Shown in pieces: positions 1 to 59,096 of a DNA stretch of 64,000 nucleotides. The stretch is from Vairimorpha necatrix (taxonomy: Eukaryota): NCBI GenBank assembly GCA_036630325.1, contig CP142730.1, forward strand, positions 558,001 through 622,000, given 5' to 3'. The stretch's first letter is position 1, and every line of letters starts with the position of its first letter. Made by a program: the position numbers and the translations under genes. Below the pieces are notes generated by a model that had not been told where the DNA came from, ran no database searches, and worked only from the letters and a program-made list of their open reading frames with translations.

Positions 1-754
1 ATATCGCGCCGAGTGGATTTTCCCCAGACAGCAAATTATATCTTTAGGCGAGGCATCATCTGAAAACTATGAAAGGCCCATATTATCATCCGCATCCTGC
101 TATTCGTCATTTTCACATATAGCTACCAACCGCATTTTATGTTTTGCGTTGACTTATTTTTTCAATAGCATTGCCGTCTTAGCTAATAGAATATAGATGG
201 GCATTCACAACCTTTTCCTACATCGTAAAGTTTTTTTAGTGTACCGAAGGATCACGCTTTCAGGACATAAACAGGGTCTTTTTTATTGTCCATATAGTAT
301 TTTATTGAGTTTGAAATAACAATAAAATAACAACAACCTTGCTAAAAGTACGTTTTATTATAAAACAAATTTTTCGAGAACCACATGTCTAAATAATCGG
401 TTTTTATTGACAGAATAAATTAAACATGTGAACAAATGTAAAATTTTTAGTAGTACAAGAACAAATGTCTCTCGAAAAAAACGAATTCGATTTCTTTTGA
501 ATCAAAAAACCTCTTTCGAGTACTAAAATGAGACATTCTTAGAGATCTCGTAATTTATAGACGTTATGGAATTTATTGACACTTAGCACCGAGACCTTTG
601 AGTAAAACATATGACTAAGATTAATCTGTCGTACATGAGGATAAATTCTATTTCTAAAAAATGTGCATCATTATAGACTTTGTAAAATTTTTATAAAAAA
701 TTAGTAGCAAAACCTAGGATTACATAAAAAAAAGATATAGATCAGATAAAATAA

Positions 755-1511
755 TTTTTTTTGCAAGTAAGTGTTAAAAATCTTATTGGCCTAGATGAAT
801 CGGATGTGATCCTTTTCCAATTTTACTGTTAAATTATTACTTACTTAAACTCCCCCATATTACATGCCGATGCAGCAATCTCCGCCTTGCCCATTGAACT
901 TGGCTCCAAAAGTCATTTTTTATTTATGCCTTTAATCGCGTTTAAGTGACCTCACGGCTGATATACTTAACAGGCATGGTTTTTTTAGCCCGAGGAGTGA
1001 CATCATTATGCTAACTCAAAGGTCTCAAAGAACATCTGTTAAGCACACAAGGGGTGTACAATCATTACATAACCAGCCAGGTATTTTCATTAGCTGTCAA
1101 CCTTAGTTCCTACCACTAGATTCATCCGCCAGATCACATACCCTGTAGAACAAGGTCCAAAAGGACTTCTGTTGCTTACTTCGTCTTGTCTTTGTTTAGC
1201 TTTAATATAACACTCTAGAGTGCTCCTGCCATGGGCTTCAATGAGGCCATATCCATCAGACACTTTCATGTATTATAAAGCCACTTTTAGAGGTTAGTGC
1301 TTCTGGTATTAAGTGCTGTTCCTATACCAGACACCAATTCACTTATTCCTGGGCCCATACAGGTTTCATTGAATCAACTTAATGATTTTGTAGACATTTC
1401 ATCCTCTGAGTTGATCCACTGCACCATAGAAAGTAGAAAAAAATTTTGGTAGCCCTGACATTCGAACTTAGCATTGTATAATGATAGCGTCGCCTTCTAC
1501 ATCTAAGGCTA
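755..1511 (-). mobile_element. tRNA-headed SINE-like element, copy 1 (diverged)
   Basis: Colinear similarity to the 11295-12080 copy (e.g. CCCGAGGAG.GACATCAT, CACTCTAGAGTG, TTTCATTGAA, CATAGAAAGTAGAA). T-run at 755-762 is the A-tail on the minus strand. Degenerate B box (GTTCGAAT on minus) near 1460. Confidence 0.85.
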
Positions 1512-2042
1512 AAAACTATTTTGAAGTTTTTTGTTAATTGTGATTTTTATGAAGATTGATCGCCGCAATTTTCTTTCATAATGTTGTAATGGTAAAATCC
1601 AAAAACGAATAAATATTTAACTATTGCATTAGACCGAGCAAATGTTCTAATTTAAATTGGGGAAATTAATAAAAAAATTTCCTGTATTTATAACACCACA
1701 ATTTTTGCCATTCAAGATCAATGTTCATACTTTTAATACACATAGAAAAAAATCTTTTTGTTAGTGTATTGACACATTGGTCGCTTACACTTGCAGTTTA
1801 ATCATACCTCTCTAAATACACAATACTCTTTGGGCCCTCCGTATTTTTTCAATATATATGATTATTTTTATGCTTTAAATACCTTGTAACAAGTATACAA
1901 GCATTTTATTGGGCAATAACTAGATCTTTTCCAATAAATATATATATTATATAAAATAACTCAGTATATCTATCCTGTGAATAAAATATAGTTTAATTTA
2001 AAATACACATGAATTTTTAGCTTATCCCTCTATATTTGTATA

Positions 2043-2819
2043 GGTGCCCTTAGCTCAGTGTTGAAGGCGATGATTCTATTGAGCAACGGCTGGGTTCGAT
2101 TCCCGTGGCAATAAAATAGCTTCTACTTTCTATGACGCAGTTGGAACAACTCAGATGATGAAAATCTCCATGATAATCATTAAATTGATTCATTGAAACT
2201 TGTGTGTGTCCAGCCACAAAGGGATTAGCATATATTGTAGAACGCACCTAAAGGCCAAAAAAATAGTATCACCTCCTTGGTAATTTAATGATACATAAAA
2301 GTATCTAATGGGTACGGCCTAGTTGGAGCCCATGGCTGGTGCACTCTAGAGTGGGATCCTAGAGCTAACTAAGAAAAAAGACGAAGTTAAGAAACAGAAG
2401 TCCTTTTGGACCTTGTTCTACGGGGTATGTGATCCGGTGGACGAATCTAGTGGGAGAGACTAAGGTCGAAAGCCAATGAAAATACCTGGCTGGTTATGTT
2501 GTGATTGTACACCCCTTGAATGCAATATGGATGATTGTAGGGACCTTTGAGTCAGTACGATGATGTCTCTCCTCGGGTTATAGATAACCATGTCAATAAG
2601 GATATCTGCTGTGAGGTTATTTTGGACGCAATTTGAGGTATTAATAGACAATGTTCTTTAATATCCAAATTTCAATATTATACGATAGGGGTTCTGCGCT
2701 TAAAAGTAATTTAATAGGAGTTTAAGTGAGTAAGAATTTAAGTAGCAGTTGGATGAGGATTAACATTGAATCCCTTTAGTCCTTACGTAACTGATATTTT
2801 CAACTTTTATTATAAAAAA
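2043..2819 (+). mobile_element. tRNA-headed SINE-like element, copy 2
   Basis: Starts GGTGCCCTTAGCTCAGTG (A box) and has GGGTTCGATTCCC (B box/T arm). The body matches the other copies, with a deletion near 2690-2720, and the end is A-rich. Confidence 0.88.
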
Positions 2820-3279
2820 TATGACAAAACGCGCTGAACAAAAAGTATTTTCTCAATAAATTTTTTTTTAATTAGCATGGTAAAATAAAATGCAAATATT
2901 TTTTTCACAAAAAGCATTATGTGAATACTAAAACAATTTTCTATCAACGAGTCCAACTATTGAACATGTATTAGATAATTCCTAAGTTATATGATTTTAC
3001 CTCACTTCTAAGTTTGTTCATAAATTCTTATAATTTTACACAAGAAGATTTGTGGCTAGTTTAAGAAAGTGAAGCTTATTATGATGAAGATGCCTTCGCT
3101 TTTGTTGTATAATTGCTTTGTCTAGTGATCTGAGAGAGATAATATAAGATACTTGATGTGCTAGAAAAAAGCAAATACGATGTCTCGTTAAAGTTATCCT
3201 AAGGGTTTTTTGTATCTGTCCTGCATTAAAAAGAGTTTATAATTTTAAAAATTGTGATGAAGTGGCCATATCATAGTAG

Positions 3280-3797
3280 AAAATGCTAACCACATCGTCT
3301 TTAAAAAGTTTTATCACTGACGACGCGGCTACTCAACATTTAAACAAAATAGTACTTTAGAAATGTGTAAATAATTGCAAAATCATTTATAGTTAGTAAG
3401 TGCTAAATAAAAATTTAATATAAAAAGAAGTTAATGTAAAGGGCTGGAATACAAAAGCGACAAAGAAGCCATCAATAAAAACCATAATATTGATGGTTAT
3501 TCAGAAAAATATTATAAAAATAGTATCGTTCCCATAATACAGGACAATAATATTTTTCTGAATAACCATCAATATTATAATTTTTATCGATGGCTTCCTT
3601 GTCGCTTTTGCATTCCACCCCTTACAACAAACTTCTTTTTATATTTTATTTTTAATTTAATTAGTTACTCAAGACTTATTAACTATTAATGACTTTACAA
3701 TTAAAAACACATTTCTAAAGTACTATTTTGTTTGCTTGTTGACGCGCCGAGTCGTCATTGATGAAACTTTTGACAGATGATGTGGTTGACATCTTTT
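3280..3797. repeat. Long imperfect palindrome (~240 bp arms, 31 bp spacer at 3516-3546)
   Basis: Examples of paired arm segments: AACCACATCGTCT with AGATGATGTGGTT, CAAAATAGTACTTTAGAAATGTGT with ACACATTTCTAAAGTACTATTTTG, TGATGGTTATTCAGAAAAATATTAT with ATAATATTTTTCTGAATAACCATCA. Confidence 0.9.
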
Positions 3798-10064: not shown

Positions 10065-11207
10065 CTATTTATTCAATGCTTCCACGCCTGGCATCTTAGA
10101 GTTACCTAATAATTTTAGAAAAGCGCCGCCACCTGTAGAAACATGGTAAAAATCTTCTATTTTTCCAAATTTACGGACACAGGCCGCCGTTTCACCTCCG
10201 CCAACTACAACCCTCTGTTTGTTTGATAATATTTTTACTAAATTTTTACTGCCTGCGCTCGATTCGTCATTTTCAAATATTCCAGGCGGTCCATTCCAAA
10301 ATATTTTATCAGTTCCTCCAATAACTTCTTTAAGCTGTTCTAATGTTTCCATTCCAATGTCCACAACTTGCCCATCTTTTGGAATATCTTTAGCATAAAA
10401 AGTTTTCCCATTGCTGCTAACTTTATAATCATGTGTCACAAAAATTTTTACATTGTGATTACTAGCTAACTCATAAATTCTTTCAATAATATCAGCCGCA
10501 TCTTCTTCAATCTTTGACTTGCCTATTTCAACACGAAAATGATATTTTAGAAATGAACATGCTAATGCACCAACTATAAATACATTTTTACATTTGGGTA
10601 TTAATGTCTCCAATATGGTAATTTTATCTTTAATTTTGCATCCTCCTAAAATAATAAGTTCCACTCCTTCATTTTTAATATCCTCACCAATAGATAATTC
10701 TTTGCTAACTAAATTCCCTACGTATGGTGTTAACCCTGTATAACACACAGAATAATCATTCCTATGTAAAACTCCAAATGCGTCAACAATTAGAATGTCA
10801 ACATAGTTGTTAAAAAACGAACTTAATGATTTGTCGGAACTAGACTTTGAAAAATTTTGTTCTTCGGGATAAAATCGAAGATTTTCTATCATTACAAGTT
10901 TTTCGTTATTATAATCTTCAATACTACAAAATTTTAAATCTTCTCCCATTTCGTCCTTAATTAATTTTTTTAAGACGTTATAAATTGGCCTACAACTATA
11001 TCTTTCGTCAAATTTCCCTTCTGGGCGACTAAGATGACTTCCAATTATAATTCTAGCTGGGTTTTGATTTATTACATCTAAGATAGTTGAAAGTGATGCA
11101 CGTATTTTATAATCATCGATAATTTCTCCATTTTGTATTGCTACGTTGTAATCCATTCTGATAAAAACATTTTTATTTTCAATCGAAGCTTCTTGAATAG
11201 TTTTCAT
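10065..11207 (-). CDS. PGK1: Phosphoglycerate kinase
   Basis: Motifs RMDYNV, SHLSRP, ENLRFYPEE, LGGCKIKDKI, DIG, WNGPPGIFE, GGGETA, HVSTGGGAFL and MPGVEAL. Confidence 0.97.
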   Translation of the reverse strand: MKTIQEASIENKNVFIRMDYNVAIQNGEIIDDYKIRASLSTILDVINQNPARIIIGSHLSRPEGKFDERYSCRPIYNVLKKLIKDEMGEDLKFCSIEDYNNEKLVMIENLRFYPEEQNFSKSSSDKSLSSFFNNYVDILIVDAFGVLHRNDYSVCYTGLTPYVGNLVSKELSIGEDIKNEGVELIILGGCKIKDKITILETLIPKCKNVFIVGALACSFLKYHFRVEIGKSKIEEDAADIIERIYELASNHNVKIFVTHDYKVSSNGKTFYAKDIPKDGQVVDIGMETLEQLKEVIGGTDKIFWNGPPGIFENDESSAGSKNLVKILSNKQRVVVGGGETAACVRKFGKIEDFYHVSTGGGAFLKLLGNSKMPGVEALNK

Positions 11208-11294
11208 TGCTATAAAAAAGATATTTATTTTTATTTTTTAAATTACCAATAAAATTTTTTGCAAATTTATTTGTTTCATTTAAAACGTGTTTTT

Positions 11295-12080
11295 TTTTTC
11301 TTCAAAGTAAGAGGTAGAGAGAAACCTTACATAGGGACCAGAGGATTTGGGGTGTGATCCTCATTCAACTGGTATTGCGAGATTCTTACTCACTATAACT
11401 CCCTCCATACAACTTGCCGGTGCAGCAATTCTCCGCCGTATCCATTGGACTTTGTCTTCAGGAGAACACTTTCCATTTATACCTCAAATCGCGTCCAGAG
11501 TGACCTCGCAGCGGATATACTTAACGGGCATGGTTATCTATAACCCGAGGAGAGACATCATCGTACTGACTCAAAGGTCCCTACAATCATCTGTATTGCA
11601 CACACGGCTCCTTACACGACCACATCCCCAGCCCGTGCTTTTTATTGGGCTGCGTTGACCACCAGTCTCCCACTAGTTTAGGCCACCGTGTTACAGAATC
11701 ATGTAGGATAGGGTCCACGAGACCTCTATTGCCCCACTCCGTCTAGTCTCTTAGTTAGCTCCAGGAACCCACTCTAGAGTGCACCAGCCATGGGCTCCAA
11801 CTGGGCCGTGCCCATTAGATACTTTTATGTATCATTAAGTCACCAAAAGCGATACTGCTTTTTGGCTTTGAGGTGCGTTTCTACACTAGATGCTAATCCC
11901 CTTGTGGCTGGACACACACAAGTTTCATTGAATTAACTTAATGATTATCGTGGACATTTTCATCATCTGAGATGTTCCAACTGCATCATAGAAAGTAGAA
12001 AAAATTTTGGAGCCCCTGGGAATCGAACAAAGCCATTGCTCAATGGAAGCATAGCATTCTACCACTGTGCTAAGGGCACC
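11295..12080 (-). mobile_element. tRNA-headed SINE-like element, copy 3 (best preserved; poly(A) tail and 21 bp TSD)
   Basis: The minus strand begins GGTGCCCTTAGCACAGTGGTAGAA...GTTCGATTCCCAGGGGCTCCA and ends ...TTACTTTGAAG(A)n. It is flanked by TTTCATT(T/A)AAAACGTGTTTTT at 11274-11294 and 12081-12101 (one mismatch). Confidence 0.92.
12008..12080 (-). promoter_or_regulatory. tRNA-like head with internal Pol III A and B boxes (not a functional tRNA)
   Basis: 73 nt. Acceptor-like stem GGTGCCC/GGGC(T/A)CC-A, A box TAGCACAGTGG, B box GTTCGATTC. Anticodon-like stem TGCT-TCCATTG-AGCA has a non-canonical loop. Confidence 0.8.
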
Positions 12081-12414
12081 TTTCATTAAAAACGTGTTTT
12101 TCAAGTTAACGTTGCTTACATTTTTTTAGTTTATCTGCATATGTTCAACATAAATTTTAAACTTTATAATGGACATTGTTACTAAACTTAAAATAGTATA
12201 AAAAGTATTATTTGTTCTTCTATAGATTTATTCTATATTATAGTTATATATATATAATATGTGTATTACAAGTATTAATTCTTTTTTTTAGATAAAAAAA
12301 TTAATATCTAAGGAATTCGGAATTTTTATTAGGCAAATCACCTACAAGATATCTTTTTAATTATTAAAAAATATACTTTACCTATAAGGAAAAATAAAGT
12401 AAAATTCAATTTTT

Positions 12415-13590
12415 TTATTCATTTATCAAATTATCATGTTTTTTCAATAGTTCAATAATTTTTGGTATTGATATCTTTCTCGTCACACCTACTTCTATTT
12501 TATAATAAACCATTCCTTTATATTCATTTCTTATAAGTCCTACATCATCTGCCAAACTTTTAATAAATGGATAATCTAATATAATGACTGTTCTTACATT
12601 TTTAATTTTAGTAGATACAAGGTAGAAATCCAGACCCATATCATTTTTAAAAGATTGTAGTTTGCAAAATAGACCAAGTCCTTCCTTGTTTTGTTCAAAT
12701 CCTCTTATAATTTCGGCTTCTCTGTCTATCCATTTTTCGAATTTATATTTTATAACTGACATACCAAAATTATAACCACATGAGTTATAAGATTTGTAGT
12801 CTTTCAGTAAAATTATATTTGTATTGTGGTATTGATCATTTCGTCGAGCTTTTTTTATATTTTTTAGTTCGTTTTTTAATTCTTTTTTTGATAAATGAGA
12901 TAATTTTTTTAATTTTTTATATTCCTCAATGTCATAAGTACTAACTCTTCTTTTTAAAAATTTTGTGTCTACTATAATCGGTATAAGTAGTAGTGATGCG
13001 ATCTGAGTGCAGAGTTGGTTTTTATTTTTTTTTAATTTTTTTGTCACGATTGTAGCTTTCTTTGATAAATCATTACCAAGGTATCTTGATACTAATGTAG
13101 TAGCAGATCCAACATCAGTGTCGATATAAATTTTATTAGTATTAGATATTTTGTGTGTTAATGGATGATGGTCTATTATCATTTCTATTTCACAATGTTT
13201 TAGTTCATCAATTGGCTCATTATGATCGGTCAATATTAATTTTATGGATTTGTCAGTTATAAAAATTTTTTTATCGTCTACTAATAGATATGTTCCTATA
13301 GCTTTAGCTTCTTTTGAGAATGTACCCAAAGGTCTTTCTAGGAATATTAAGTCTTCTATATTTATTTCATATTTTTCGCAGACCCAGATTAATTCTCCTT
13401 TACTTTTAAATACATCTTTTCTCATGTTTACAACAAAAATTGCATTTATAGCATGCGCTAATATTAGTGAACTTATAAATGAGTCAAGGTCGCATGCCTC
13501 ATTCCCCATACAAATTTGTAAGTGGCTGTTTTGTACTTTATTTTTATTTTTTAGTAAAAATTTTTCTAGACTTTCTTTTAATTCAGTCAT
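12415..13590 (-). CDS. PPX1: Exopolyphosphatase (DHH/DHHA2 family, PPX1/prune-like)
   Basis: Motifs GNEACDLDS, LTDHN, IIDHH, VGSATTLV, IIVDT and LLKDYK. CCC lies directly before the ATG. Confidence 0.9.
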   Translation of the reverse strand: MTELKESLEKFLLKNKNKVQNSHLQICMGNEACDLDSFISSLILAHAINAIFVVNMRKDVFKSKGELIWVCEKYEINIEDLIFLERPLGTFSKEAKAIGTYLLVDDKKIFITDKSIKLILTDHNEPIDELKHCEIEMIIDHHPLTHKISNTNKIYIDTDVGSATTLVSRYLGNDLSKKATIVTKKLKKNKNQLCTQIASLLLIPIIVDTKFLKRRVSTYDIEEYKKLKKLSHLSKKELKNELKNIKKARRNDQYHNTNIILLKDYKSYNSCGYNFGMSVIKYKFEKWIDREAEIIRGFEQNKEGLGLFCKLQSFKNDMGLDFYLVSTKIKNVRTVIILDYPFIKSLADDVGLIRNEYKGMVYYKIEVGVTRKISIPKIIELLKKHDNLINE

Positions 13591-21803: not shown

Positions 21804-24800
21804 TTATAACCATGCATATTCCTCTAAATTGATCTTAGACATGTTCTCTACACTAGTCCACTCGTTTATTGTCTTGATTATATCTTCAATATTCCTTGTT
21901 TTTATTATTCTTTCTTTTATCTTCTTTCTCTTTTCCTTGTTTAGATTTGTGTACACTTCTAAGATCTCCTCAGTGAAATCTTCTAGATCTTTAAATGAGT
22001 GGTAAATTAGTGACAAGAATTGTCCTTCTATTCCTTCCTTCCCGAAAAAGTGCTGTATATTCGGGGATATATAAATCTTTAGATTATAAGTCTCATTCAT
22101 TATTTCTGTATTAAATATCTTCTTATTTATATACATTCCCTTGTCTGAGTAGATCATTATATTACTAGGCCTCATATTTATAGTATGGAGCATATAAGAG
22201 ACTATGAAATGAGAAGAGTAAGACGAGATCAGTGAATTCCTAAAGAGGAGATATTTATAAGGACAAGAGAATGAAGATTTAAAGTGTTTCTTTAAGATAT
22301 CTTCCGTTACATTATTCTTTAGAATATTAGTAAAGGCCTTAAGCTTAGTCTTATTTGATAATTTCGGGGTAAATTTGCATATTTCAAATTTGCCCTGTAA
22401 TATGTCGTGTATTCTTGGGTCTTCTTTATTTATAATTTCCAAATTAGAGAAGACGAAATTATTATAGAAGTCTAAATTTAGCATTCTATTTGTATCTTCT
22501 TTAATATTCTTATTTTTATCTTGTATATTAATAGTATTAATAGTATTAATAGTATTTGTTATTTCTTTAATATTCGTACTATCTTCTTTACTATAATCCA
22601 TACAATTCGTACTATCTTCTTTAATATCATCTTTACTATAATCCATAAAATTTGTACTATCATTTATTACATTAATTGTGTGCTGATGTGTATTAATTTC
22701 TAGTTCTTTAATATATTCAAGAATGACATGCTCTAAATTATTCCTTATTCTATATTCCTCATAGATAAAGTCTAGATCTGTGTATGAATCTTCTACTACA
22801 TTTATAAACATGTCTTCTTTGGCTTGTACATTCTTCAATAGTGGGAAATATCCTTCTCTAATATTTATCTCATAATTATTACTCATCTTATAACTTAGTA
22901 GATTATAAATATGAGTCAGATTTGTCTCCTTCTTAGAAATCTGATAGAATTCATATTTGTATGACTTCCCATCTGAGCATACGAAAGTGAGATCTTCTAT
23001 CTTTTCATATTGTCTATTACAGTAACTTATCACTGTAGTGACTACTTCTATATAAGGAATATTCTTATAATCATGTCTTATCTCATTATATCCTCCAAAT
23101 AAATACTTCTTTATATTTCCCCGTACTAAGAAGTCATTGTATCTTACTCTTAGATCTATATTGTAATTATCTTCTGTACCACTCAGGAGAAGAGTAATCT
23201 TCTGTCTCATTAGTAGAAGAATCTCTAGTAATTTATAAGAACAGAACACTAGTGTCTCCTCCAGATTTGTAAAGAGAGACATAAAAGGGAGGAGAGTGTG
23301 GATCTGCCTCTTCATACTCTGAAACAAGTCTATAAATTTACTCTTTAGATCTCTCTGGTCATAATTAAATGTTATAATATCTGATATAATACTATCTAGT
23401 ATTTGGATTATAGATGACTCATTCTTAAATGCCCTGTAATCTACTACATTAATAAACTTAGATAATACTAAATTAGTATTATTTATATTCATAATATTAT
23501 TAAGATCTTCTAGAATACTCAGGGCTCTATTATAAATTATATTATCAGGTATCTTCTTAGTAGTCTCTAGGAATAAATTCATATAAAAGATCACGGGCTG
23601 GGGATAGACTTCAAATATCTTAGAGAGTATTTGACTTATATATTTATAATTATCTGTATGAATTAACTCTACTAATTTAGAAATGTAGAATACGAATGTA
23701 TTAACATTACAATTATTCATCAGATTTATAAAGAGATCCATCTCTGTATTAATGACTCTACTAGACAGGACATTAATAAAGATAATCATAATATTATGAG
23801 AGGTCTCTAATTCTGCACAGGATAAGCCCATTAAAATCGAGCAAATTATTTCATCATCAAGAAAGCTAGTAGATGTGTCTTTACTAGAATTAGTATGATT
23901 ATTTCTTATTAATATTCTGATGTAATGATAATAATTCTCCCCAATATTACTCAAATGTATGGACTGGAAATATAACTTCTCTGCTTCTTCATAAAGTCCT
24001 AATTTTTCACTGAATAATCCCCTCATTCTGAATAAATTACTACTCTGACTATCTAAGAAATGACTCACATTGGTAGAATTGGCCAGATCTAGTCCAAGTT
24101 TATATTCCTTCATTTCATAGAAGCACATTAATTCATAAATCACTTTATGATACGCGTCTAATACTTTGATACTCGGGAGATCAAAAACAGACTTAAAAGA
24201 AAACAAGGCATTGTCAAAATACCCCTTCCTCAGGGAGGCCAGTCCTAAATAATTACTATTCTTCCCTAATCCATTATTCCCTTTAAAATACATACTCTTC
24301 TTTAACTGCTTAATTGTCTCTGTGTACTCTTTATTCTTATTTACTATACCACTTATATCATTCTTAATATCTCCCTTTATTCCTGAGAGATCATTGTCTA
24401 ATACACTCAGATCTGAGAAAGTCAAGTCATTACTAAAATCTTCTATCTTTCTATAAGCATGTTTCCTCCAAGTACTGAACTTTAATAAACTTAAAAAGTC
24501 ATTTTCGAAATTGGGCTCTCTGTCTTCCCATCTGAAAAGTATGGAATTAATCTTGTCACTGTTCTCTAAAGAATTATTAAAAATAAAAGAAATCTCGTGC
24601 ATCTCAAAGATGATCTGTAAGAAAATCATGTACGAATTATCATGGAATACAGAATTGGGACCAAATAGAATCTTCTTATTAATTTCCTTAATCAAAGAGA
24701 CTGCTTTCTCTATACTGAAATTATCAAAGAGCATAATAAAGAGCTCATAAAATAACCACTCTGGATTATTTGATAAATTATTAAATCCACTTTCTACTCT

Positions 24801-27800
24801 GATAAAATTAGAGAATATTTCTCTTTCATGGACATTATTGAAATTATTAGTGTAGAACATCGAATCTGCTATTAAAATGACATCTCTCTTTTTTCTTCCT
24901 ATGTTCAGAGTCAAGTCCCATTGTTGTAACTCTTTGGCGCATTTAATCCATTCATCAAGCACTAGATCATACTCGTCTTTATAATAAGACATTTTAGATT
25001 CTATCGCTTTAGTCTGAAATTCCTCATAGATCTGCTGTGCCTCTTTAATTTTCCCTAATTGATGATAAAGTGTCGCCTTAGATAATTCTGGTAATTTTGA
25101 ATATGCCCTTAGAGATCCATAATAATAATCCTTCATACACATGTCATAAAGCGTCTTACTGTCTTTTAATTCCGCATAGAAAGCCCAGCAACTTGGTCCA
25201 TTTCTAAGATATTTAATAGACTTCTTAATATTCTCAATATTATCAAAATAATTATGTCTAGAAAGATATCTCAAGAATAAAAGAGAAATCTTCTCATTAT
25301 TATTTATATGAGACACTAAAATAAATATTCTATTAGCAATATCTTCAATATCACTAGTATTATCTTTAGGACTGTTTGGTAACTCTAAATTTAATATTAT
25401 CGACTCCAAGATATTTATACATGAATCATAAGAATGATAAATGAAATCTAAAATATTAGATAATTGATTACAGGGAGAATATTGCTGGACGAAATCATGG
25501 AAATTGACTATATATTTCTCTACGTAAGTTTTATATGTTTCTTCTATATATTCAAATGGGATCTTCTCTAAGGATTCGTCAAAGTAAAATGAAGACTTCG
25601 ACACACCGGCGCCAAATAGCCTGAAAGTAGACAAGTCAACATCTCCAAGAGGAATAAGTAACATCCTGGCTATAATATAAGGAATATAATATTCATCTGT
25701 AAATGACCAGTCTAAATTTAGTAATTCTAAGAATCTTATATTTAAATTTCTAGAAATCATCTCGTCGAATAATTGGAAATATCTCAGTCTTATCTCTGAC
25801 TTCTTATTAATAAGGCCATAATAAAAAATCATGCTCAAATTACTTAGACTGTGAATCTTTACATTCTTATTTGCAAGGAAGAAATTCAGTGCACAATTCA
25901 GAAAGTCATTCTGCTTAATTATAAATATTCCTTCTTTTAATTTATTATAAATTATCGAATACATAGTCATTGTGTCATTTATAGACAAATCTTCTATCAA
26001 GACTGACCCTATGACTTCTGAAATATCTAGTGAATTATTATTGTAATTTTTCAGTATCTTAGTGATAAATGATAATATCTTATGAACATTCCCTTTATCT
26101 GTCATCATTTTCAGAATTTTATTAAAATAATACTGTCCGTCTGGATTTAAATTATATTTCATATCTAATTCATCCTTAAATATTTCATATATTTTTTCAT
26201 GGTCTATTTCTACCTCATCATTATTAAATTGTACTTCTAGAATATGATAAATAAGACTTTTTTCGTATTTTGTATCTTCTGATAAATTTATGTGTTCTCT
26301 GATATATTTTACTAACTCTTTAGATATCTGAATATTGTACAAATATGGCTTGATTATTGAAATGTAACTCGGTATTAATTTCTTTATATGTTCAATATTC
26401 TTAGTATCTTCATTGTTCTTACTCTTAATTTCTAAATATCTGATCATATTATGAATGTTGACATTATTAAATTCTAAAAGATCCAAATTTATATCAAAAT
26501 CGTATTTCTTGAAAATATCCATGAAAATATCTGAGGCGTCATTTGTCTTCTGGAGATTATTGTAATATGAGACAATTTTAGAATAGAAATCTATGAGAAT
26601 TTCATTCTCATAAATATTAACCTGGTTTTTTGTATAAAATCCACAGATTATATCGAATAAATATGTCCCAGTCTTATAATACAATTGTATAGAAGTATTA
26701 AATAGTCTATAAACTACTAGTACTAATTCCATGACTATATCAGAAGTAAGTAAATCAGGCTTAGAAATTAGTAAAGGATAAAGTATGAAAATATTGGAAA
26801 TATATTTCGACTCTAATCTTATGTACTTCAATATGTCTTTCTCGTAAATACTATTATCTGAATCATTGTTCTGCTCTACTATCTTTTTTAGACAATATAA
26901 AGTATATTTTCTTTCTTCGTGGGACAAGTCTAAAAGCATAGAGAAATATTCTTGTCTGGGCTGGAATGTACACAAGTAATACAGGAGGCAAGACCTTATA
27001 TTGATATTATTTATATTCTCATTACAATATCTGGACATTTTCGAATTATAAAACTTTTCTTCTACAAATATTTCTATTAACATCCAGGAATGTTCACCAA
27101 AATAATCTATTAATTTCTCGTAATTGCTCACATCTGCTCTTGACAAGCTCTTTAGTAGGCAACCCATGACAGATTTATTTCTTAATTTCGCAAATGTCTT
27201 GACCTTGACAGAATCGTAAATTCTAAACAGTGGATCTATTTTGAAGATGACTTCTAAATCATCATCACTGAAATTATTGATAGAATATTTAAAATATTCT
27301 ATGATCGAGTCTGTGGTCTTATTCGTCTTCTTTAGTTCACTGAAAATCATGAGTGCCAATTGTATCTGAGTATGAGATATTTCATATTCTATTAGTTTAA
27401 GAAATCTTAAGAGATTTATTCCTTTTTCTATGTCTACGGTATTCGAGATATCTAAATTATCAATCATGATTTTTAATTCGTCTTCATTTTTTATGTCTAA
27501 AACATTCGAAATTTCTAAATTATTGAGCATCTTCTTTACATTATCCTCATCTAATGAGCTAATTGCGACTAGTCCTAATTTATTACCTGATACTTTTAGA
27601 TTATTTATATATTTTCTAAATGAGTCTACTTTCTTATAAAGGATTTCTGACAGATACAAAATTGGATTACTTGTAATATTCATGACAATTAATGGATAAG
27701 TTAGATTTGAATATGTCTCTAAATATTCCAGAAACCTTTTCTCTATCTTTTTGATGTAAGACCTAGAAAACTCAAAGAGTAAGGTGTAGACCATAAGGAT

Positions 27801-33845: not shown

Positions 33846-34270
33846 ATCATTAAGTTGATTCAATGAAACTTGTGTGCGTTAAACACAATTTGATTATAGT
33901 TTGGAATAGCATCTTAAGTCCTCAATAATATAGCTTAGGATCTACATTAATGTATGTTTATACTAAATAAAGATACAAGGCCATTGGCTTTTAGACTTGC
34001 ACAAGATTGTGTAAGTAAAGTTAAGAGACTAGACGAAGTAGAGCTGTGTGGTTTCAAGTGTCATTTTTTAAGTATTCTTATATGCTAATCTCTTATAACA
34101 GGCCTAGACCTATAGAACGAAAGACCTACAATATGTATGTAATGGGGCACGATCTATATTCAAGAAATAATGTCATGTTTCCGATTAGTACGATGATGTC
34201 TCTCCTCGGGTAATTTCCACCTAGTGAACTTTATATCTGCTATGAAATATTCTCGAAGCAAAGTGAGCAT
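33846..34270 (+). mobile_element. Highly diverged, headless relative of the SINE-like element (copy 4)
   Basis: Three motif islands occur in the same order as in the other copies: ATCATTAAGTTGATTCAATGAAACTTGTGTG (from 33846), AAGAGACTAGACGAAGTAG (34023-34041) and AGTACGATGATGTCTCTCCTCGGGT (34187-34211). The sequence between them is diverged and the boundaries are uncertain. Confidence 0.8.
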
Positions 34271-34954
34271 AAAGCTAATGTATAGCACAATCACTTTCTG
34301 TATGTTTATTTAAGTGTGTTATGATTTGAATTCACAATATAACGAGTATAGCGCACTTAAAACATATAAAATTATGATGTGAGTTATTTCTTTACTATAC
34401 CTTATAAGAAATAATTTACATTGCCGAAATCTGTTTTCCTAAGTATAAAAGCTACCAACACTAGCAGCAGCCCACTAAAAAAGACTAATTTTCATAGTAA
34501 ACAGTTTTTAGTTTAAAAATTATCAGGCTACAATACTGACAATATTTCACAATGCTTTTATTGCGCCTGTGGTTGTTCTAAGCCATTTTGTCAAATTTTG
34601 TATATTCTTTCACTGAGACTTGCGATAAAACAGGAGATCGGAAAATCAAAACATTAAGAAGAATTCTTATGAATTTACTTTTAAGTTCTGCTAATATTAT
34701 CGTTTATTCTTACGGATATAATTTATGTATATTAAAATTTATCTACTTACATCTTTTTTTTGGTTTCTTTGGGACATCAATGCTCAATATTTTTTTTTAA
34801 GTAAATCTTATTTTTTTATGCGAAATATGCTAAATCATTTTTTTTATGACGTTTAAATATGTTAGATTTTTTAATATAAAATAAAATTGATAAATTTTAG
34901 TAATTTATAACTAAATAAAGTTTATTTATTTCTATAAAATTTGTTTATTTTAAA

Positions 34955-36590: not shown

Positions 36591-37721
36591 TTACAAATCA
36601 TCAAATAAATTCTCAATAACAGAATAATTTATCTTACTAGATACTCTTTTATTAAGAGATTTCAATACATCTGACACATTATTATATTGCTTTTTATTAT
36701 TTTTTCTTTTTGGTTTTTTTATATGTTTAAGCTTTTCTTCTTTTTCTATCATAAATGATCCATACATTTCTTCCCACATTTTTTCTCTTTCAGCTACTTC
36801 CTCTTCATTCAGAAGATCTTCTTCCGAATTATCTTCAAAAATTTTATTATCTGAAAAATTTTCAATTTTTTTAAAATTTTTTTTTGATTCATTTTTTAGT
36901 ACTGGCGGGTCTTCTTCTTTAATTTTCCATTCAGAATTAAATTCATTTAAACTTAACTGTGCTGATTCTGTGTCTCCAATTTCCATCAATCTTTTTCTTA
37001 AGATTGTTTCTGACACATGTACCACTTTGGCTATTTCAATAATACTTCTTTCTTCGTTATAAACTCGACTGGCTATCAAAATTGCCACGCCGCAAATATT
37101 ATTTGGTCTTCTTCCTGTTGTTATCCAGTCTCTATTCATTCTAGAAATAATTCTCAAAGCCAAAGATGTTATTTTCGGATTTTTCAAATTTAATTTAATT
37201 ATATATCTCTGGATATACAGCGTAGGGTCTACATTTGGTATATTAAGATTTAAAACTTCTACAATTTTATTAAACGACTTGCCAATTTTAAATACATCTA
37301 TATTTAGAGCATTAGAAAAATCTATCAATAAATGAGGAGTTTTTTCTTCTCTACACACAATATAAATACAAGCACTGAGAGTGTACAAGATAGACTTCCC
37401 TTTACTGAGATTATAAGGAAGAAGTAATCTGTAATATCTATATGAACATTCTAAGAAATTATTCCCTAGTCCCATATTTGAACAAATACTAGAGATGGTA
37501 TTTTTAATATAGAAGCTTGCGTCTACATATTGCGTGCCGACATGTTTAGAATCAATATTGATTATTTTGCCATTAAGTGTGCTTTTAGTTCCATTATCAG
37601 TAAAATTTATTGTGTTTACTATTATGTTCTCTTCTTGTACCATACCACAATTGGTACAATAGACTACTCCTTGGACACTGTCAGTGGCAGTATTGGAAGA
37701 ATTACAGTTACTACAAATCAT
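36591..37721 (-). CDS. BRF1: TFIIIB subunit Brf1
   Basis: Zn ribbon CxxC...CTNCG.V.EEN, ACIYIVCREEKTPHLLIDFS, DPTLYI.R, MNRDWITTGRRP..ICG and C-terminal SSKINY. Confidence 0.95.
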   Translation of the reverse strand: MICSNCNSSNTATDSVQGVVYCTNCGMVQEENIIVNTINFTDNGTKSTLNGKIINIDSKHVGTQYVDASFYIKNTISSICSNMGLGNNFLECSYRYYRLLLPYNLSKGKSILYTLSACIYIVCREEKTPHLLIDFSNALNIDVFKIGKSFNKIVEVLNLNIPNVDPTLYIQRYIIKLNLKNPKITSLALRIISRMNRDWITTGRRPNNICGVAILIASRVYNEERSIIEIAKVVHVSETILRKRLMEIGDTESAQLSLNEFNSEWKIKEEDPPVLKNESKKNFKKIENFSDNKIFEDNSEEDLLNEEEVAEREKMWEEMYGSFMIEKEEKLKHIKKPKRKNNKKQYNNVSDVLKSLNKRVSSKINYSVIENLFDDL

Positions 37722-38762: not shown

Positions 38763-41170
38763 AATGTACCAAGGTTGTAATTATGAAAAAATTCTGAAAA
38801 TACAAAACAAATTAAAAAAAAATTTTGGCAATAAAAAAAATTAAATAAGTTATTTATTTTGTAGGAATGCCAAAATATAACTTATTAAAGATCCTAAAGT
38901 CTGAATTAAAATTCTCATAAGTGTTTACAGACTCATAAAAATGATTATAACGAGCCACGGGTTTATATTTTTTTTGCTATACCGTAGAGTAGGTACAAGA
39001 CATTTTTATATTAAATGCTACTAAAAAATTCATATTTCTATGTTAATTTAAATATATATAGGGTAAAAAAGCAATATTTGTTATTTAATTGTCAATCGAA
39101 GAAAGAAACAATTTATTGTTGTTGTGAATAAATAAAATGTATTTCCATCTTTCCATCTAAAAAGCATATACATGAAGTAATAACTATAATTATTGTATGC
39201 TCTTATTATAATCTTGAGTTTTATTGACATTTATTGTCTCTTAATAATGTTATTCTATATTTTTTCTTTTATTTAAAAAATAGTATAAAATTAGACGCAA
39301 ATACTCTCATTTTACGTATATCTTGCATTAGTAGATATATTTTTGTATAATTTCATATAAAACGTTAAATTGAAATTTCTTATGTAGGACAAATTATCTC
39401 GGCAGTATTAATTTATGTCAACTCTTCCAGGGCTACAAATTCATAACCATACATTTAATATACAAGCAGAATATATTCTAGCCGAGATACAAATAGCGCA
39501 AGAACATTTCCCATAAAGTCATAGTGAGAATCTTTTGTTTCTTTGGTAGGTATATGTAATTTGTATATCATGAAAGTAACAAAAGATTTTTTGTGTTACC
39601 ATTGCACCATAAATGAAAAAAATGTGCACTATAACCTAAATTTTTTAATCAACAGTATATTAATTCTGAGACTATCAATAGAGTTTAGGTCAGGACAACA
39701 AGTAGTTTTTATATTTGTGTCGTGCTAGAACAAATCACGCCTTAAAAGTTTTCAAACACAGAATAAGTAGTTCAGTTAGAAATTGTCATATTAGCTCTGA
39801 AGACACAGCATCAGCACATTTCACTGCCTTTTTGCTCGATACATAACCAGCCTGTGTATTTATAATGCTTTATCACATGTTGAAATTAAGTATCAGCTAT
39901 TTTAATACCTCAAGAGCATAATAACCCAAGATCTTGATTAAAGTGAAATTTAATTATAATTGCTCGGATTACTTCTCGTAAAAGTGCTTTAATGTATTTG
40001 AAATGGATCCGTTTTTTTTTGTACATTGAATAATTCTTATGCAATATTATTTTAATTTTTAATAGGTCACTTTGTTACAAGGCAGTGCTCCTGTCCGTTG
40101 AACTAGTGTCTTTTTATACGTATAAAGAGTATAAAATTTTTTTATAGACATTTTTTCATTTTTGATGACTTAATTATAGAAACTAAAAATATTTTATTAA
40201 TAATGAATCTGGTTTTGTGTGTGAACACACTCCCCCATGCACCAAATACAGATTTAATGCAAAAAATCAGCTCGCATGTTTTTACTTAGACTAAGATTGT
40301 TATAGATCATGATATATTTATGCAGTTTATATATTTTTTGCTTTTATTTTGCAAATAATATTTGTTGACAATAGCATAAATCATGTTGAAAGACTTTCTA
40401 ATAAGCTTTTAATTCTAAAACGCAAACCTAAAGCCAATCAAACTTTACAGAGTAACATAACATTTTAGCTACATTTATAGAATGGTTGAGTCCGATAAAA
40501 TTTGACATTCTGCATTGTAAGACTTGTATGAGATAAAATATGCACTCCAAACAAGCCAAATGATTTTCTAAGATTGCGCAATAATGCTAAATTTTTTTTA
40601 AAAAAATATACGAGGAATACAATATTGTACAAACGAGCTTATTGAGAAATTAATTTAATTTCGTGATATATATATATATAGAATAAAAAAAAAGGTTTAT
40701 TCATTATAATATCAAAAATACGAATATTAGCAAGAGAAAGGAAGAAATTTTATTTTACTCATCTGAAAAAGTTTAAAAAAATGAATAATTTTTTTTTTAT
40801 TTGTTAGAGACCTCTTTATACATCTAGAATAAAAAAATAAATATCTCGACTTGAAGAAAAAATATCAAATGTTTAAATAAATCAACACGGTAATTTTAAC
40901 GAATTTAAGCATTAACTCTTAATAACAAGCCGTCTAAGAAGCATAACTCAATTTATAAAAAATAACATGTAGGAAACAGTTGTATATTTCATTTTTTATC
41001 TAGAACTTTTGTATCCGACAATTATAAGTCAGGCTCCTGTAAAAAAACGAATCTCAGTATAAAATTATTGCTCAGATCTTCAGATTTTTATAATTAACTA
41101 TATTTTTAGTCTCAATATAATTAGATAAATTTTCTGGATATTTTTATTGGTGTTTTATGCAAATATAAAA

Positions 41171-41949
41171 GGATTCGCCCAGTAGTCGAAGGCGATGCTT
41201 CCATTGAGCATTAACTAAGTTCGAATCATAGGGCACCAAAATTGTTTCTACTTTCTATGATGCAGATGGAACAACTCAGATGATGAAAATGTCCACGATA
41301 ATCATTTAGTTAGTTCAATGAAACTTGTGTGTGTTCAGCCACAAGGGGATTAGCATCTAGTGTAGAAACGCACCTCAAAGCCAAAAAGCAGTATCGCCCT
41401 TTGATGACTTAATGATACATAAAAGTATCTGATTGATACGGTCTATGTGGAACACATAGTAGATGCACTTTAGAGTGAAATCCTAGAGCTAACTAAGAGA
41501 CTAGACGAAGTAGGGCAATAGAAGGTCTCGTGGAGCCTATCCTACAAGATTCTGTAACACAGCGGACGAGACTAGTGGGAGATTGGTGGCCAACACAGCC
41601 CTTCAAAAATGCCAGGGCAGGTGATGTGTCGATGCTGAGGCTGCGTGCGATACAAATGATTATATAAAGCTTAATTTAGAAGATGATGTATCTCTTCGAG
41701 TTTTAGATAACCATGCTCGTCCGTATATCCGCCGTGAGGTCATTCTGGGCGCGATTTGAGATTAAATGGAAAGTGTTTTCATTGAGCCAAAGTCCTTTGG
41801 TTACGACGGAGCTTGCTGCGCTGGCAAGTTATTTGGATGTAGTTTTAGTGAGTAACAATCCCAATGTACCAGTTGGATAAGGATCTTACATAGATCCTCT
41901 GGTCCCTATGTAAGGTTTCTTTCCACATCTTACTTGGAACGAAAAAAAT
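41171..41949 (+). mobile_element. tRNA-headed SINE-like element, copy 5 (11 bp TSD)
   Basis: Head contains GCTTCCATTGAGC, GTTCGAATC and GGGCACCA; the body is full length and the end is A-rich. TGCAAATATAA flanks both sides (41158-41168 and 41950-41960). Confidence 0.9.
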
Positions 41950-42825
41950 TGCAAATATAAGTTTATATTAAGATTAATATACAGTGAAGGAATATTTTCA
42001 TGGAGAACAGACAGAATGCTCGCACTGATATAAAGCGTAAAGACACGACGAGATGCCAATAACAATGTAAAACATGGAGCACATGGTTAAATAAGATGGG
42101 AGTGTGCCGAATCATAAATACAATTAAGATATAAAGGTTATCTCGTGTTCAAAGTGAAGCCATATAGTCTTAAATTAGCAGATAAATTAGGTTGGGTTCT
42201 TAATCTACAGGATATATATCAAATTATCAAGGCTAACATTGTAATTGTGGACAAATTGAGCAATTAGCCGCTCAATATGGGATAGGATTATAAGATCTAA
42301 TATAATGCATGCGGCGGAGAAGATAAAAAACAAAATCGACCTTCTAGCACTATTATGGAATCACAACGAAAAAACAAGCGTCTTTTTTTTATGTGCTTGA
42401 GGCGGAATTTATTCCAACTTTGTCCACGCACACACTAAAGAGCTTAAATTTAAGCACAACAAAGGATAAAAGTGTTTAATGACCTCGAAAAATAGCTGTG
42501 CGAAGCAGAAGTGAACTTTAAAAAAGATAAGCAAGCTACTTGCGAAAAAAAGAGGAAGATGTCTAAAACAACTCCAGGGCCGATGACTCTGGGGAAAGTC
42601 AGTATACAGAGATTGCAAAACATTAATAAAATGACACTATACCAGATCAAATTGAATGTAAAACATTATAATTAAAATTTAAATAATATTTTAGTTAGTC
42701 GTTTGATATAAGACTTTAATCTAATGCGATTTTAAGAACATTTTAAAATTTAGAGTGTGCGTTTTCCACTGCATTTTTCTTATGGCCCTTGATCTCGTTT
42801 GAATTTCTGCCCAAATTTTCACCCC

Positions 42826-48813: not shown

Positions 48814-49591
48814 TTTTTTTTTTTTGCAAATAAGAGGCAAGGAGAAACCTTACATAGAGACCAAAAAACTTTAAGTGTGATCCTTATCCAACTGGTACTA
48901 TGAGATTTAAACTCACTAAAACTCCCTCCATATAACTTACCGGTGCAGCAAGCTACGACGTAACCATTGGACTTTGGCTCCAGGAGAACACTTTCCATTT
49001 ATACCTCAGATCGCGTCCAGAGTGACCTCATGACGGATATACTTAACGGACATGGTTATCTATGATCCTAGGAGAAACATCATCGTACTAACTCAAAGAT
49101 CCCTACAATCATCTGTATTGCACACGGTTCCTTACATCGCCACATCACCAACCCGGAATTTTTATCGGGCTGCGGGTACTACCAGTTTCACACTAAATTT
49201 GGGCACTGTGTTACAATCTTGTAGGATAATGACCATGAAACCTTCAATTGCCTCGCCTCGTCTAGTCTCTTAGTTAGCTCTGGGGTCCCACTCTAAATGC
49301 ACCAGCCCTGGGCTCTAACTAGGCCGTATCCATCAGATACTTCATTTTCAATAATTAAACAAAGGAGGAGACTGTTTTCTGACTTATGGTGCATTTCTAA
49401 ACCAAATACTAATTTTTTATGTCTTAACACACACAATACATTTCCACAAGTTTATGATTTTTCTGAACACTTCTCATTCCGAATTGTTCCAACTGCATCT
49501 TAAAAAGTAAAAGCGTTTTTGAGTCCCCGGGATTCATACCCAGATATGCTCAATGCTGGTTTCTTTATTTGGCCTCTAGGCCAAGAGCACA
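48814..49591 (-). mobile_element. tRNA-headed SINE-like element, copy 6 (head degenerate)
   Basis: T12 run at 48814-48825 is the poly(A) tail. The body is colinear with copy 3 (GAAACCTTACATAG, GGAGAACACTTTCCATTTATACCTC, GTCTAGTCTCTTAGTTAGCTC). Confidence 0.88.
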
Positions 49592-59082: not shown

Positions 59083-59096
59083 TAAAATGATTTTTC

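What the first reader, a model, noticed from the sequence alone, without database searches (positions are those of the whole stretch)
11274..12101. A tRNA-headed, poly(A)-tailed, TSD-flanked ~0.78 kb retroposon family, six copies in 64 kb
Seen: related copies at 755-1511(-), 2043-2819(+), 11295-12080(-), 33846-34270(+, partial), 41171-41949(+) and 48814-49591(-). The head folds like a tRNA with A and B boxes. The tail is A-rich. Copy 3 has a 21 bp TSD and copy 5 an 11 bp TSD. No ORF is conserved in full. Established: a Pol III tRNA head, an A-tail and variable-length TSDs are the marks of SINEs mobilised by LINE target-primed reverse transcription, and most SINEs are shorter than this. Inference: this is an abundant, unusually long SINE in a reduced-genome parasite, whose partner LINE is not in this window. 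I recall that an unexplained dispersed repeat of similar size was reported from Nosema ceranae; whether it is the same family needs checking.
Basis: partly seen in the sequence, partly recalled or inferred. Interest (0 to 1): 0.85.

Follow-up and report, generated by a model that had tools for sequence, protein, structure and literature searches.

The report
tRNA-headed SINE family in a microsporidian
This is a family of about 780-base non-coding jumping elements with a tRNA-like front end and an A-rich tail, an ordinary kind of genomic parasite (a SINE), but one not yet described for microsporidian parasites in the papers searched here.

Summary
The window has five full-length copies (765-789 bp) and one decayed partial copy of one repeat. 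All five full copies start at the same base, position 1 of a tRNA-Met(CAT)-like cloverleaf. In copy 3 the A box lies at 9-19 and the B box at 52-62. All five end in 6-11 A. The two least decayed copies have flush target-site duplications of 21 bp (20/21) and 11 bp (11/11). Only 2 of 5000 random site pairs gave a flush repeat of 11 bp or more. There is no conserved ORF, TIR or LTR. Contigs of two public runs put 384 and 262 pieces on the element, and cover steps up and down at its ends.

The best reading is a tRNA-derived SINE copied by a LINE enzyme. Pol III transcription and the LINE partner are inferred. The window holds no LINE, no RNA run was listed and no genome is held.

Fungal SINEs of 700-900 bp are already on record, so the length is not exceptional. 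Identity with the unexplained ~700 bp repeat of Nosema ceranae could not be tested.

Verdict: a new member of a known kind, of moderate interest.

The parts
11292..12080 (-). Copy 3, full length (789 bp). It is the least decayed copy: GC 0.46 and 17 private substitutions.
12008..12080 (-). tRNA-Met(CAT)-like head of copy 3 (element bases 1-73)
   Evidence: ARAGORN at relaxed thresholds. No Rfam tRNA match.
12062..12072 (-). A box (TAGCACAGTGG), element bases 9-19
   Evidence: Read. The consensus TRGCNNAGTGG is recalled. Combined A/B motif: 1 match in the window, 0 of 100 shuffles.
12019..12029 (-). B box (TGTTCGATTCC, 10/11), element bases 52-62
   Evidence: The family majority reads G at 12029 and 12030 (element strand), which gives 11/11 (table 3).
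11292..11299 (-). A tail of copy 3 (8 A, running into the A-rich start of the TSD)
12081..12101 (.). Target-site duplication of copy 3, upstream copy
   Evidence: 21 nt, 20/21
11274..11294 (.). Target-site duplication of copy 3, downstream copy
41169..41949 (+). Copy 5, full length. A few bases are missing in the acceptor arm. There is no T run of 5 or more.
41158..41168 (.). Target-site duplication of copy 5, upstream copy (TGCAAATATAA)
   Evidence: 11/11
41950..41960 (.). Target-site duplication of copy 5, downstream copy
48815..49591 (-). Copy 6, full length, 11-A tail, no TSD detectable
2043..2824 (+). Copy 2, full length, second subtype, B box 11/11, no TSD detectable
752..1516 (-). Copy 1, full length, second subtype, the most decayed copy (78 private substitutions), no TSD detectable
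33846..34273 (+). Copy 4, a decayed partial copy in two pieces (profile positions 137-352 and 514-607)

Best explanation
This is a tRNA-derived SINE, a non-coding retroposon of about 780 bp that cannot move on its own.

Proposed mechanism:
1. The first 73 bases descend from a tRNA-Met(CAT)-type gene and keep its internal promoter (A box at 9-19, B box at 52-62).
2. RNA polymerase III therefore probably starts at element base 1 and reads through the GC-rich body to the A-rich end. TFIIIB is present: its Brf1 subunit is encoded in this same window.
3. A reverse transcriptase/endonuclease encoded by a LINE elsewhere in the genome nicks an AT-rich target and primes on the A tail (target-primed reverse transcription).
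4. A staggered second nick then leaves a target-site duplication of variable length.
5. Inserted copies decay under the genome's AT-biased mutation.

Shown here: the family itself, the common 5' end, the tRNA-like head with its boxes, the A tails, two flush TSDs of different lengths, the lack of coding capacity, the abundance, and the decay pattern.

Inferred: Pol III transcription, LINE dependence, and which LINE is the partner.
For: Family. There are five full-length copies and one partial copy in 64 kb. All six lie between ORFs.

Common 5' end. All 5 full copies begin within about 2 nt of tRNA position 1. In run X2, 3 contigs lose likeness exactly at 12081, and their flanks are unlike one another (agreement 0.59). 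One X3 contig does the same after the head (table 7).

Head. ARAGORN (relaxed) calls tRNA-Met(CAT) on bases 1-73 of copy 3 and on the five-copy consensus. The A and B boxes sit at canonical positions, and the combined motif appears in 0 of 100 shuffles. At four places where copy 3 breaks the fold or carries a T run, most other copies in public runs read the base that restores it (table 3):
- 12029 and 12030: depth 4316/5053 and 4517/5053 in X1, 407/416 and 403/407 in X2. This gives a 5/5 T stem and an 11/11 B box.
- 12011: 6257/7207 in X1 and 279/279 in X2. This gives a 7/7 acceptor stem.
- 12002: 23573/24964 in X1 and 758/770 in X2. This breaks the T6 run behind the head.

Retroposition marks. 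The tails are 6-11 A. Flush TSDs of 21 bp (20/21) and 11 bp (11/11) sit on the two least decayed copies, against 2 of 5000 random pairs. There are no terminal inverted or direct repeats and no conserved ORF.

Read-through is feasible. Copies 5 and 2 have no T run of 5 or more.

Abundance. 384 (X1) and 262 (X2) contig pieces lie on the element at 80% likeness or more. Summed cover steps up in bin 11303-11369 and down after bin 12040-12106. In X2 the flank stands at about 4.65, against 273-867 inside the element. The tool warns that this is not a copy number.

Decay. Private substitutions number 17, 38, 46, 62 and 78 in copies 3, 5, 2, 6 and 1. G/C-to-A/T changes exceed the reverse in the four older copies, and GC falls from 0.46 to 0.385.

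Context. LINE families are reported in Nosema species: 4 to 15 families (table 1 of PMC4202319). A Brf1 gene lies at 36591-37721.
Against: - The Rfam tRNA covariance model gives no match at E<=10 on copy 3 or copy 2, even when only 96 nt are searched.
- ARAGORN at default settings finds no tRNA in the window, and at -ps it calls only 1 of 5 heads.
- The head's folding energy is not unusual: z -1.36, with 20 of 200 shuffles folding as well.
- Only 2 of 5 full copies have a TSD.
- Copy 3 has a T6 run and copy 1 a T7 run just behind the head, and copy 6 has T5 and T6 runs. Each would stop Pol III in those copies.
- No LINE lies in the window, and no similarity to anything else in the window was found.
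- No contig bridged an empty site.
- At about 780 bp the element is longer than most SINEs.
Confidence: 0.75

Rival explanations
1. The copies are retroposed copies of a long non-coding RNA made by Pol II or by read-through transcription. On this reading the tRNA-like head is not a promoter. It is a processing signal: RNase P cuts at its 5' side, which would also give every copy the same first base. The element would still be non-autonomous and LINE-dependent, but it would not be a Pol III SINE.
For: The element is 780 bp long. T runs of 5-7 occur in 3 of 5 copies. The N. ceranae ~700 bp repeat was reported to carry a conserved candidate Pol II promoter (PMC2685015, section 13). The head scores poorly as a tRNA.
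Against: The A and B boxes sit at exactly the canonical positions. The family-majority bases give a perfect B box and break the T run behind the head. Copies 5 and 2 have no T run of 5 or more. No Pol II signal was tested here.
Confidence: 0.12
2. The SINE was acquired recently by horizontal transfer from an arthropod host or another GC-richer genome. This is a claim about origin and is compatible with the SINE mechanism.
For: The body has GC 0.46 in a window of GC 0.28. Pieces of the family appear in a bat-gut metagenome run and a freshwater metagenome run without cover of the flanks. Transposon exchange between microsporidia and animals is documented (title and abstract of PMC4202319).
Against: Copies as low as 64-71% identical, with strong AT-biased decay, show long residence in this genome. 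Two subtypes coexist. The other transposons in the window are also GC-richer than the background. No host sequence could be searched.
Confidence: 0.08
3. The copies are 5'-truncated tails of a LINE rather than a separate SINE family, as an earlier follow-up found for 'SINE-like' repeats in a red alga.
For: A tail and TSDs are shared by both kinds of copy. Earlier findings e1-554100 and e1-555848 show this is a common mistake.
Against: All 5 full copies share one 5' end, at base 1 of a tRNA-like head. Contigs from other runs lose likeness at that same base. Truncation would scatter the 5' ends. No open frame is shared between copies 3 and 5.
Confidence: 0.03
4. The copies are DNA transposon derivatives (MITEs) or solo LTRs.
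For: MITEs are known in Nosema bombycis (passages of PMC10946416), and gypsy elements lie in this window.
Against: There are no terminal inverted repeats and no terminal direct repeats. The TSDs are 21 and 11 bp, not a fixed short length. The copies have an A tail and a tRNA-like head. They show no similarity to the gypsy elements in the window.
Confidence: 0.02

Closest known systems
Long fungal SINEs: mgsr1 (800 bp) and Mg-SINE (472 bp, tRNA-derived) of Magnaporthe grisea, Egr1 (700 bp) and EGH24 (900 bp) of Erysiphe graminis, Foxy of Fusarium oxysporum
   Same: They are non-coding dispersed retroposons in fungal-lineage genomes. Copy numbers are in the tens to hundreds, and several are tRNA-derived. 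Lengths of 700-900 bp are on record (introduction of PMC5063351, passages).
   Different: No sequence comparison was possible, since no Repbase, Dfam or SINEBase was on hand. Those families come from ascomycetes, not microsporidia. The head here is tRNA-Met(CAT)-like, and the body is much GC-richer than its host genome.
The 'novel dispersed repeat' of Nosema ceranae (Cornman et al. 2009, PMC2685015)
   Same: Its conserved core is about 700 bp. It has no conserved coding potential and two or more subtypes. It is highly abundant (matches on 250 contigs), had no match in GenBank or Repbase, and comes from the same group of microsporidia (section 13 read in full).
   Different: It is described as often tandem, with unclear ends and a candidate Pol II promoter. 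Here 0 of 6 copies are tandem and the ends are sharp. The sequence (their Fig. S2) is a supplement that could not be opened, and no N. ceranae genome is held. This organism's PGK is only 59% identical to that of the nearest named relative, Vairimorpha bombi, so shared sequence is uncertain.
Canonical tRNA-derived SINEs of animals and plants moved by LINEs
   Same: They have a tRNA-derived head with A and B boxes, a unique body, an A-rich tail, variable TSDs and no ORF.
   Different: They are usually 80-600 bp (recalled). The partner LINE and any shared 3' end are unknown here.
R2 3'UTR RNA element (Rfam RF00524)
   Same: The tail of copy 3 (11310-11415) gives a weak match: 19.8 bits, E 0.12.
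   Different: The match is below the gathering score of 38 and is not reproduced in copy 5. R2 inserts at one site in rDNA and needs no A tail, whereas these copies are dispersed. I treat the match as chance.

Membership tests
SINE (non-autonomous non-LTR retroposon) | No coding capacity of its own | tested here: met
   The longest open frame is 107 aa, antisense in copy 3, and it is broken in copy 5. No frame is shared.
SINE | 5' head derived from a small Pol III RNA, with internal A and B boxes | tested here: met
   The A box is 11/11 at positions 9-19. The B box is 10/11 at 52-62 in copy 3 and 11/11 in copy 2. The combined motif occurs once, against 0 of 100 shuffles. ARAGORN (relaxed) calls tRNA-Met(CAT) on bases 1-73. 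Family-majority bases restore the T and acceptor stems. Against this, Rfam's tRNA model gives no match.
SINE | Transcribed by RNA polymerase III | not testable with these tools
   No RNA run was listed. A Brf1 gene lies in the window, and 2 of 5 copies have no T run of 5 or more.
SINE | A-rich or LINE-like 3' end | tested here: met
   All 5 full copies end in 6-11 A.
SINE | Target-site duplications of variable length | tested here: inconclusive
   Two of 5 copies have them: 21 bp (20/21) and 11 bp (11/11). The control gave 2 of 5000. The three older copies show none.
SINE | Dispersed, with many copies | tested here: met
   There are six copies in 64 kb. 384 and 262 contig pieces from two runs lie on the element.
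SINE | A partner LINE in the same genome, often sharing the 3' end | not testable with these tools
   No genome is held. There is no LINE in the window and no similarity to other parts of the window.
SINE | Typical length under about 600 bp | tested here: not met
   The copies are 765-789 bp. This is a convention rather than part of the mechanism, and fungal SINEs of 700-900 bp are on record.
Functional tRNA gene | Passes tRNA detectors | tested here: not met
   ARAGORN at default settings finds 0 in the window. Rfam finds nothing at gathering score and no tRNA match at E<=10.
Nosema ceranae ~700 bp dispersed repeat | Sequence homology | not testable with these tools
   Their Fig. S2 is a closed supplement, and no N. 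ceranae sequence is held.
Nosema ceranae ~700 bp dispersed repeat | Size, lack of coding potential, two or more subtypes, abundance | tested here: met
   The element is about 780 bp. It has no ORF. Copies 1 and 2 share a variant segment against copies 3, 5 and 6 (columns about 484-545). It is abundant.
Nosema ceranae ~700 bp dispersed repeat | Frequent tandem arrangement | tested here: not met
   None of the 6 window copies is tandem. One X1 contig end shows an A run followed by the last ~90 nt of another copy (table 7).
R2 3'UTR element (RF00524) | Reaches Rfam's gathering score | tested here: not met
   It scores 19.8 bits against 38 and is absent in copy 5.

The most novel reading that the evidence does not exclude
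This is the first characterised SINE of the phylum Microsporidia and the same family as the ~700 bp 'novel dispersed repeat' left unexplained in the Nosema ceranae genome paper of 2009. If so, it is a long-lived tRNA-Met-headed SINE lineage shared across Nosematidae. Its GC-rich body would be held by selection against strong AT pressure because the partner LINE enzyme recognises it.
Probability: 0.3. Interest if true: 0.6.

Novelty: new member of a known kind. Interest (0 to 1): 0.45.

Why it matters
Microsporidia are the textbook case of genome reduction, yet about 7% of this window is one non-coding retroposon family. Public read sets put hundreds of contig pieces on it.

The survey of microsporidian transposons does not use the word SINE in its main text (PMC4202319). 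Three other microsporidian genome or transposon papers gave 0 occurrences of the whole word. Two others give only RepeatMasker categories.

A defined SINE would:
- improve repeat masking and gene calling in these AT-rich genomes, where its GC-rich body can look like a gene;
- give presence/absence markers for strain typing;
- point to an active LINE partner;
- possibly explain the unexplained N. ceranae repeat.

It is not a new kind of element.

Tried and rejected
- Whole genome: none is held for this window. Genome-wide tables of ends, tails and TSDs, the parent tRNA gene and the LINE partner could therefore not be examined.
- RNA evidence: no RNA holder was listed.
- Empty site: no contig in the four runs laid bridged the insertion of copy 3. 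The joints listed there are internal skips in other copies.
- Metagenome scan with a 19-base motif: 5 stretches matched, and 0 of 5 matched the family profile at E<=10. They are chance hits.
- Prokaryote genome scan with a 21-base motif: 1 stretch matched, from a GC 0.50 Clostridia bin, with no profile match.
- Viral contigs: 0 matches for both motifs.
- Rfam at gathering score: 0 matches in the window.
- The weak R2-element match in the tail of copy 3 was not reproduced in copy 5 and is rejected as chance. Weak C/D-box snoRNA matches (E 0.29-9.8) are likewise rejected.
- Whole-element folding: z -0.90 sense and -1.26 antisense over 20 shuffles. There is no sign of unusual structure.
- Consensus fold of the tail: -5.33 kcal/mol with a covariation term of +1.09. 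It is not convincing.
- Copies 1 and 2 as an inverted segmental duplication: the similarity stops at the element ends, so they are separate insertions.
- Earlier notes of this scan: none on this genome or this sequence.
- Supplements of the papers were closed. Fig. S2 of PMC2685015 and the supplementary consensus files of PMC4202319 may bear on identity and on the partner LINE.

Full report
**What the window is.** The window has GC 0.28 and closely spaced ORFs for housekeeping proteins. These include PGK, UDP-glucose pyrophosphorylase, Brf1, TAF-like proteins and a 3432-aa FAT-domain protein. The PGK protein is 59% identical to that of Vairimorpha bombi, 48% to Nosema granulosis and 42% to Encephalitozoon hellem. 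Its own contig is 1.30 Mb long. The source is therefore a microsporidian of the Nosema/Vairimorpha neighbourhood, but none of the named species. No whole genome is held for it.

**The observation.** BLASTN of the reported interval against the window gives four further full-length matches (72-82% identity) and two short ones. A profile built from the five long copies recovers them at E 1e-210 to 1e-265. It also recovers two pieces of a decayed sixth copy, at E 5e-11 and 8e-6. A maximum-sensitivity search of the window with these copies masked finds nothing more (best E 5.1). The copies are:
- c1, 752-1516(-)
- c2, 2043-2824(+)
- c3, 11292-12080(-)
- c4, 33846-34273(+), partial
- c5, 41169-41949(+)
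- c6, 48815-49591(-)

All lie between ORFs. Pairwise identities run from 63.7 to 81.6%, and c3 is the closest to every other copy. c1 and c2 share a variant segment (columns about 484-545 of alignment A1), so at least two subtypes exist. c1 and c2 face away from each other 526 bp apart. Their similarity stops at the element ends, so they are separate insertions.

**Ends.** All five full copies end in 6-11 A. c3 is flanked flush by a 21-nt direct repeat (20/21) and c5 by an 11-nt exact one. A script and the repeat finder found both independently. Among 5000 random site pairs 780 bp apart in this window, 2 showed an exact flush repeat of 11 bp or more. c1, c2 and c6 show none, so the count is 2 of 5. 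The two copies with TSDs have the fewest private substitutions: 17 and 38, against 46, 62 and 78. There are no terminal inverted repeats or LTR-like direct repeats. The TSD of c3 begins with AAAAA directly after the A tail, as expected if a T-rich nicked strand primed on the tail. The TSD of c5 does not, and two cases cannot define a target preference.

**The head.** All five full copies begin within about 2 nt of one base. In c3 that base is position 1 of a 73-nt cloverleaf that ARAGORN, at relaxed thresholds only, calls tRNA-Met(CAT). The same call is made on the five-copy consensus of the head. The A box (TAGCACAGTGG) lies at 9-19 and the B box (TGTTCGATTCC) at 52-62, the canonical positions in a tRNA gene. 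c2 has an exact B box. The combined motif occurs once in the window and in none of 100 shuffles.

Several results count against the tRNA reading:
- ARAGORN at default settings finds no tRNA in the window.
- At -ps it calls only 1 of 5 heads.
- The Rfam tRNA model gives no match at E<=10, even on 96-nt stretches of c3 and c2.
- The head's folding energy is ordinary (z -1.36).

Most of this is explained by decay of the individual copies. When contigs of public runs are laid on c3, most of the depth from other copies reads a different base at four places in the head (table 3):
- At 12029 and 12030 the majority base makes the B box 11/11 and the T stem 5/5.
- At 12011 it makes the acceptor stem 7/7.
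- At 12002 it interrupts the T6 run that follows the head in c3.

The source sequence of the family is therefore a better tRNA mimic than any copy in the window, and it lacks a terminator directly behind the head.

**Body and tail.** The body has no conserved ORF and no match in Rfam at gathering score. It shows no unusual folding energy on either strand. It is not similar to any other part of the window, including the two gypsy elements. A weak match of the c3 tail to the R2 3'UTR model (19.8 bits, E 0.12) is not reproduced in c5, so I treat it as chance. A consensus fold of the last 150 nt is weak. GC is 0.46 in c3 and falls to 0.385 in c1 and c2. Private changes in the four older copies run mainly from G/C to A/T. 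The ancestral element was thus GC-rich and the copies decay toward the genome's composition.

**Abundance and spread.** Contigs of four coded public runs were laid on 10700-12700 at 80% likeness or more. The numbers of pieces laid were 384 (X1), 262 (X2), 19 (X3, a bat-gut metagenome) and 7 (X4, a freshwater metagenome). Cover is low in the flanks, rises in bin 11303-11369 and falls after bin 12040-12106, which matches the element's ends. In X2 the flank stands at about 4.65 and the element at 273-867. The tool states that summed contig depth is not a copy number, so I claim only that the family is highly repeated. Three X2 contigs stop matching exactly at 12081 and run on into unlike flanks. 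This supports the common 5' end outside the window. No contig bridges an empty site. No RNA run was listed.

**Mechanism.** The anatomy is that of a tRNA-derived SINE. Pol III, recruited by the internal boxes, would start at base 1. Brf1, a TFIIIB subunit, is encoded at 36591-37721. Copies c5 and c2 carry no T run of 5 or more, so read-through of about 780 nt is feasible. A LINE-encoded enzyme would then copy the RNA at a nicked target, leaving an A tail and TSDs of different lengths. The window holds only Ty3/gypsy-type reverse transcriptases, an intact 1254-aa ORF and a decayed remnant. Their integrases would give short TSDs of fixed length. LINE families are reported in Nosema species: 4 in N. 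ceranae, 15 in N. apis and 11 in N. bombycis (table 1 of PMC4202319). Pol III transcription, LINE dependence and the identity of the partner are inferences.

**Rivals.**
- Truncated LINE tails were the outcome of two earlier follow-ups in a red alga. The single shared 5' end at a tRNA-like head excludes this reading here.
- A MITE or solo LTR is excluded by the ends.
- A Pol II or read-through RNA whose tRNA-like head serves as an RNase P processing site cannot be excluded without RNA data.
- Horizontal origin of the GC-rich element is possible, but the old decayed copies show long residence in this genome.

**Comparison with what is known.**
Cornman et al. 2009 (PMC2685015, section 13 read in full) report a 'novel dispersed repeat' in N. 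ceranae with a core of about 700 bp. It matches on 250 contigs and has no coding potential, no database match and two or more subtypes. It is often tandem and carries a candidate Pol II promoter.
- A phrase search finds only that paper.
- The sequence is in a closed supplement and no N. ceranae DNA is held, so identity is untested.
- 'SINE' as a whole word occurs 0 times in the main text of the transposon survey PMC4202319 and of PMC8206274, PMC7313128 and PMC12558613.
- Two other genome papers give only RepeatMasker categories.
- A search for 'short interspersed' plus 'microsporidia' returned 42 papers. None of the 25 listed titles describes a microsporidian SINE family (listing only).
- The N. 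apis genome paper reports 16 tRNA-derived pseudogenes by tRNAscan-SE (passage). This is a lead, not a test.
- Length alone is not exceptional, since fungal SINEs of 700, 800 and 900 bp are on record.

**Verdict.** It is a new member of a known kind, possibly the first SINE defined in microsporidia and possibly the explanation of the N. ceranae repeat. Interest is moderate.

Noticed in passing
window 51317-55081 (+): An intact 1254-aa Ty3/gypsy-type polyprotein ORF with protease, RT, RNase H and integrase domains. It may belong to an active LTR retrotransposon.
   Followed up: partly
window about 56011-59134 (-): A decayed gypsy-type remnant in broken frames (an RNase H domain at E 5e-23 and a weak zinc knuckle). 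It explains the GC-rich stretch with strong GC skew at 56-60 kb.
   Followed up: partly
window 36591-37721 (-): A Brf1 gene (TFIIB repeats, zinc ribbon and the Brf1 TBP-binding domain). The Pol III initiation factor that a tRNA-type promoter needs is therefore encoded here.
   Followed up: partly
window 11207-11292: The 3' end of copy 3 lies 84 bp upstream of the PGK start codon, on the same strand. The insertion has therefore replaced most of the gene's former upstream region, and any effect on PGK expression is unknown.
   Followed up: no
window 3462-3515 and 3547-3600: A 54-nt inverted repeat, 93% complementary, with a 31-nt spacer. It could be a hairpin or a MITE-like end and was not examined.
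   Followed up: no
window 44418-46640 (+) and 61363-62880 (+): ORFs of 740 aa and 505 aa with no Pfam family.
   Followed up: no
window 21804-32102 (-): A 3432-aa ORF in which Pfam finds only a FAT domain. It may be a Tra1/TRRAP-like or PIKK-like giant protein.
   Followed up: no
runs X3 and X4 laid on window 11367-12028: Pieces of the family lie in a bat-gut metagenome run and a freshwater metagenome run with little or no cover of the flanks. X3 has 19 pieces, the best with about 3 differences in 100. X4 has 7 short pieces, a few of them weak matches in the flanks. A carrier of this family therefore occurs in such samples.
   Followed up: partly
run X1, loose end at window 11383: One contig shows a run of 14 A, then 13 other bases, then the last ~90 nt of the element. 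It could be a 5'-truncated copy inserted behind an A run or behind another copy's tail, which recalls the tandem arrangement described for N. ceranae.
   Followed up: no
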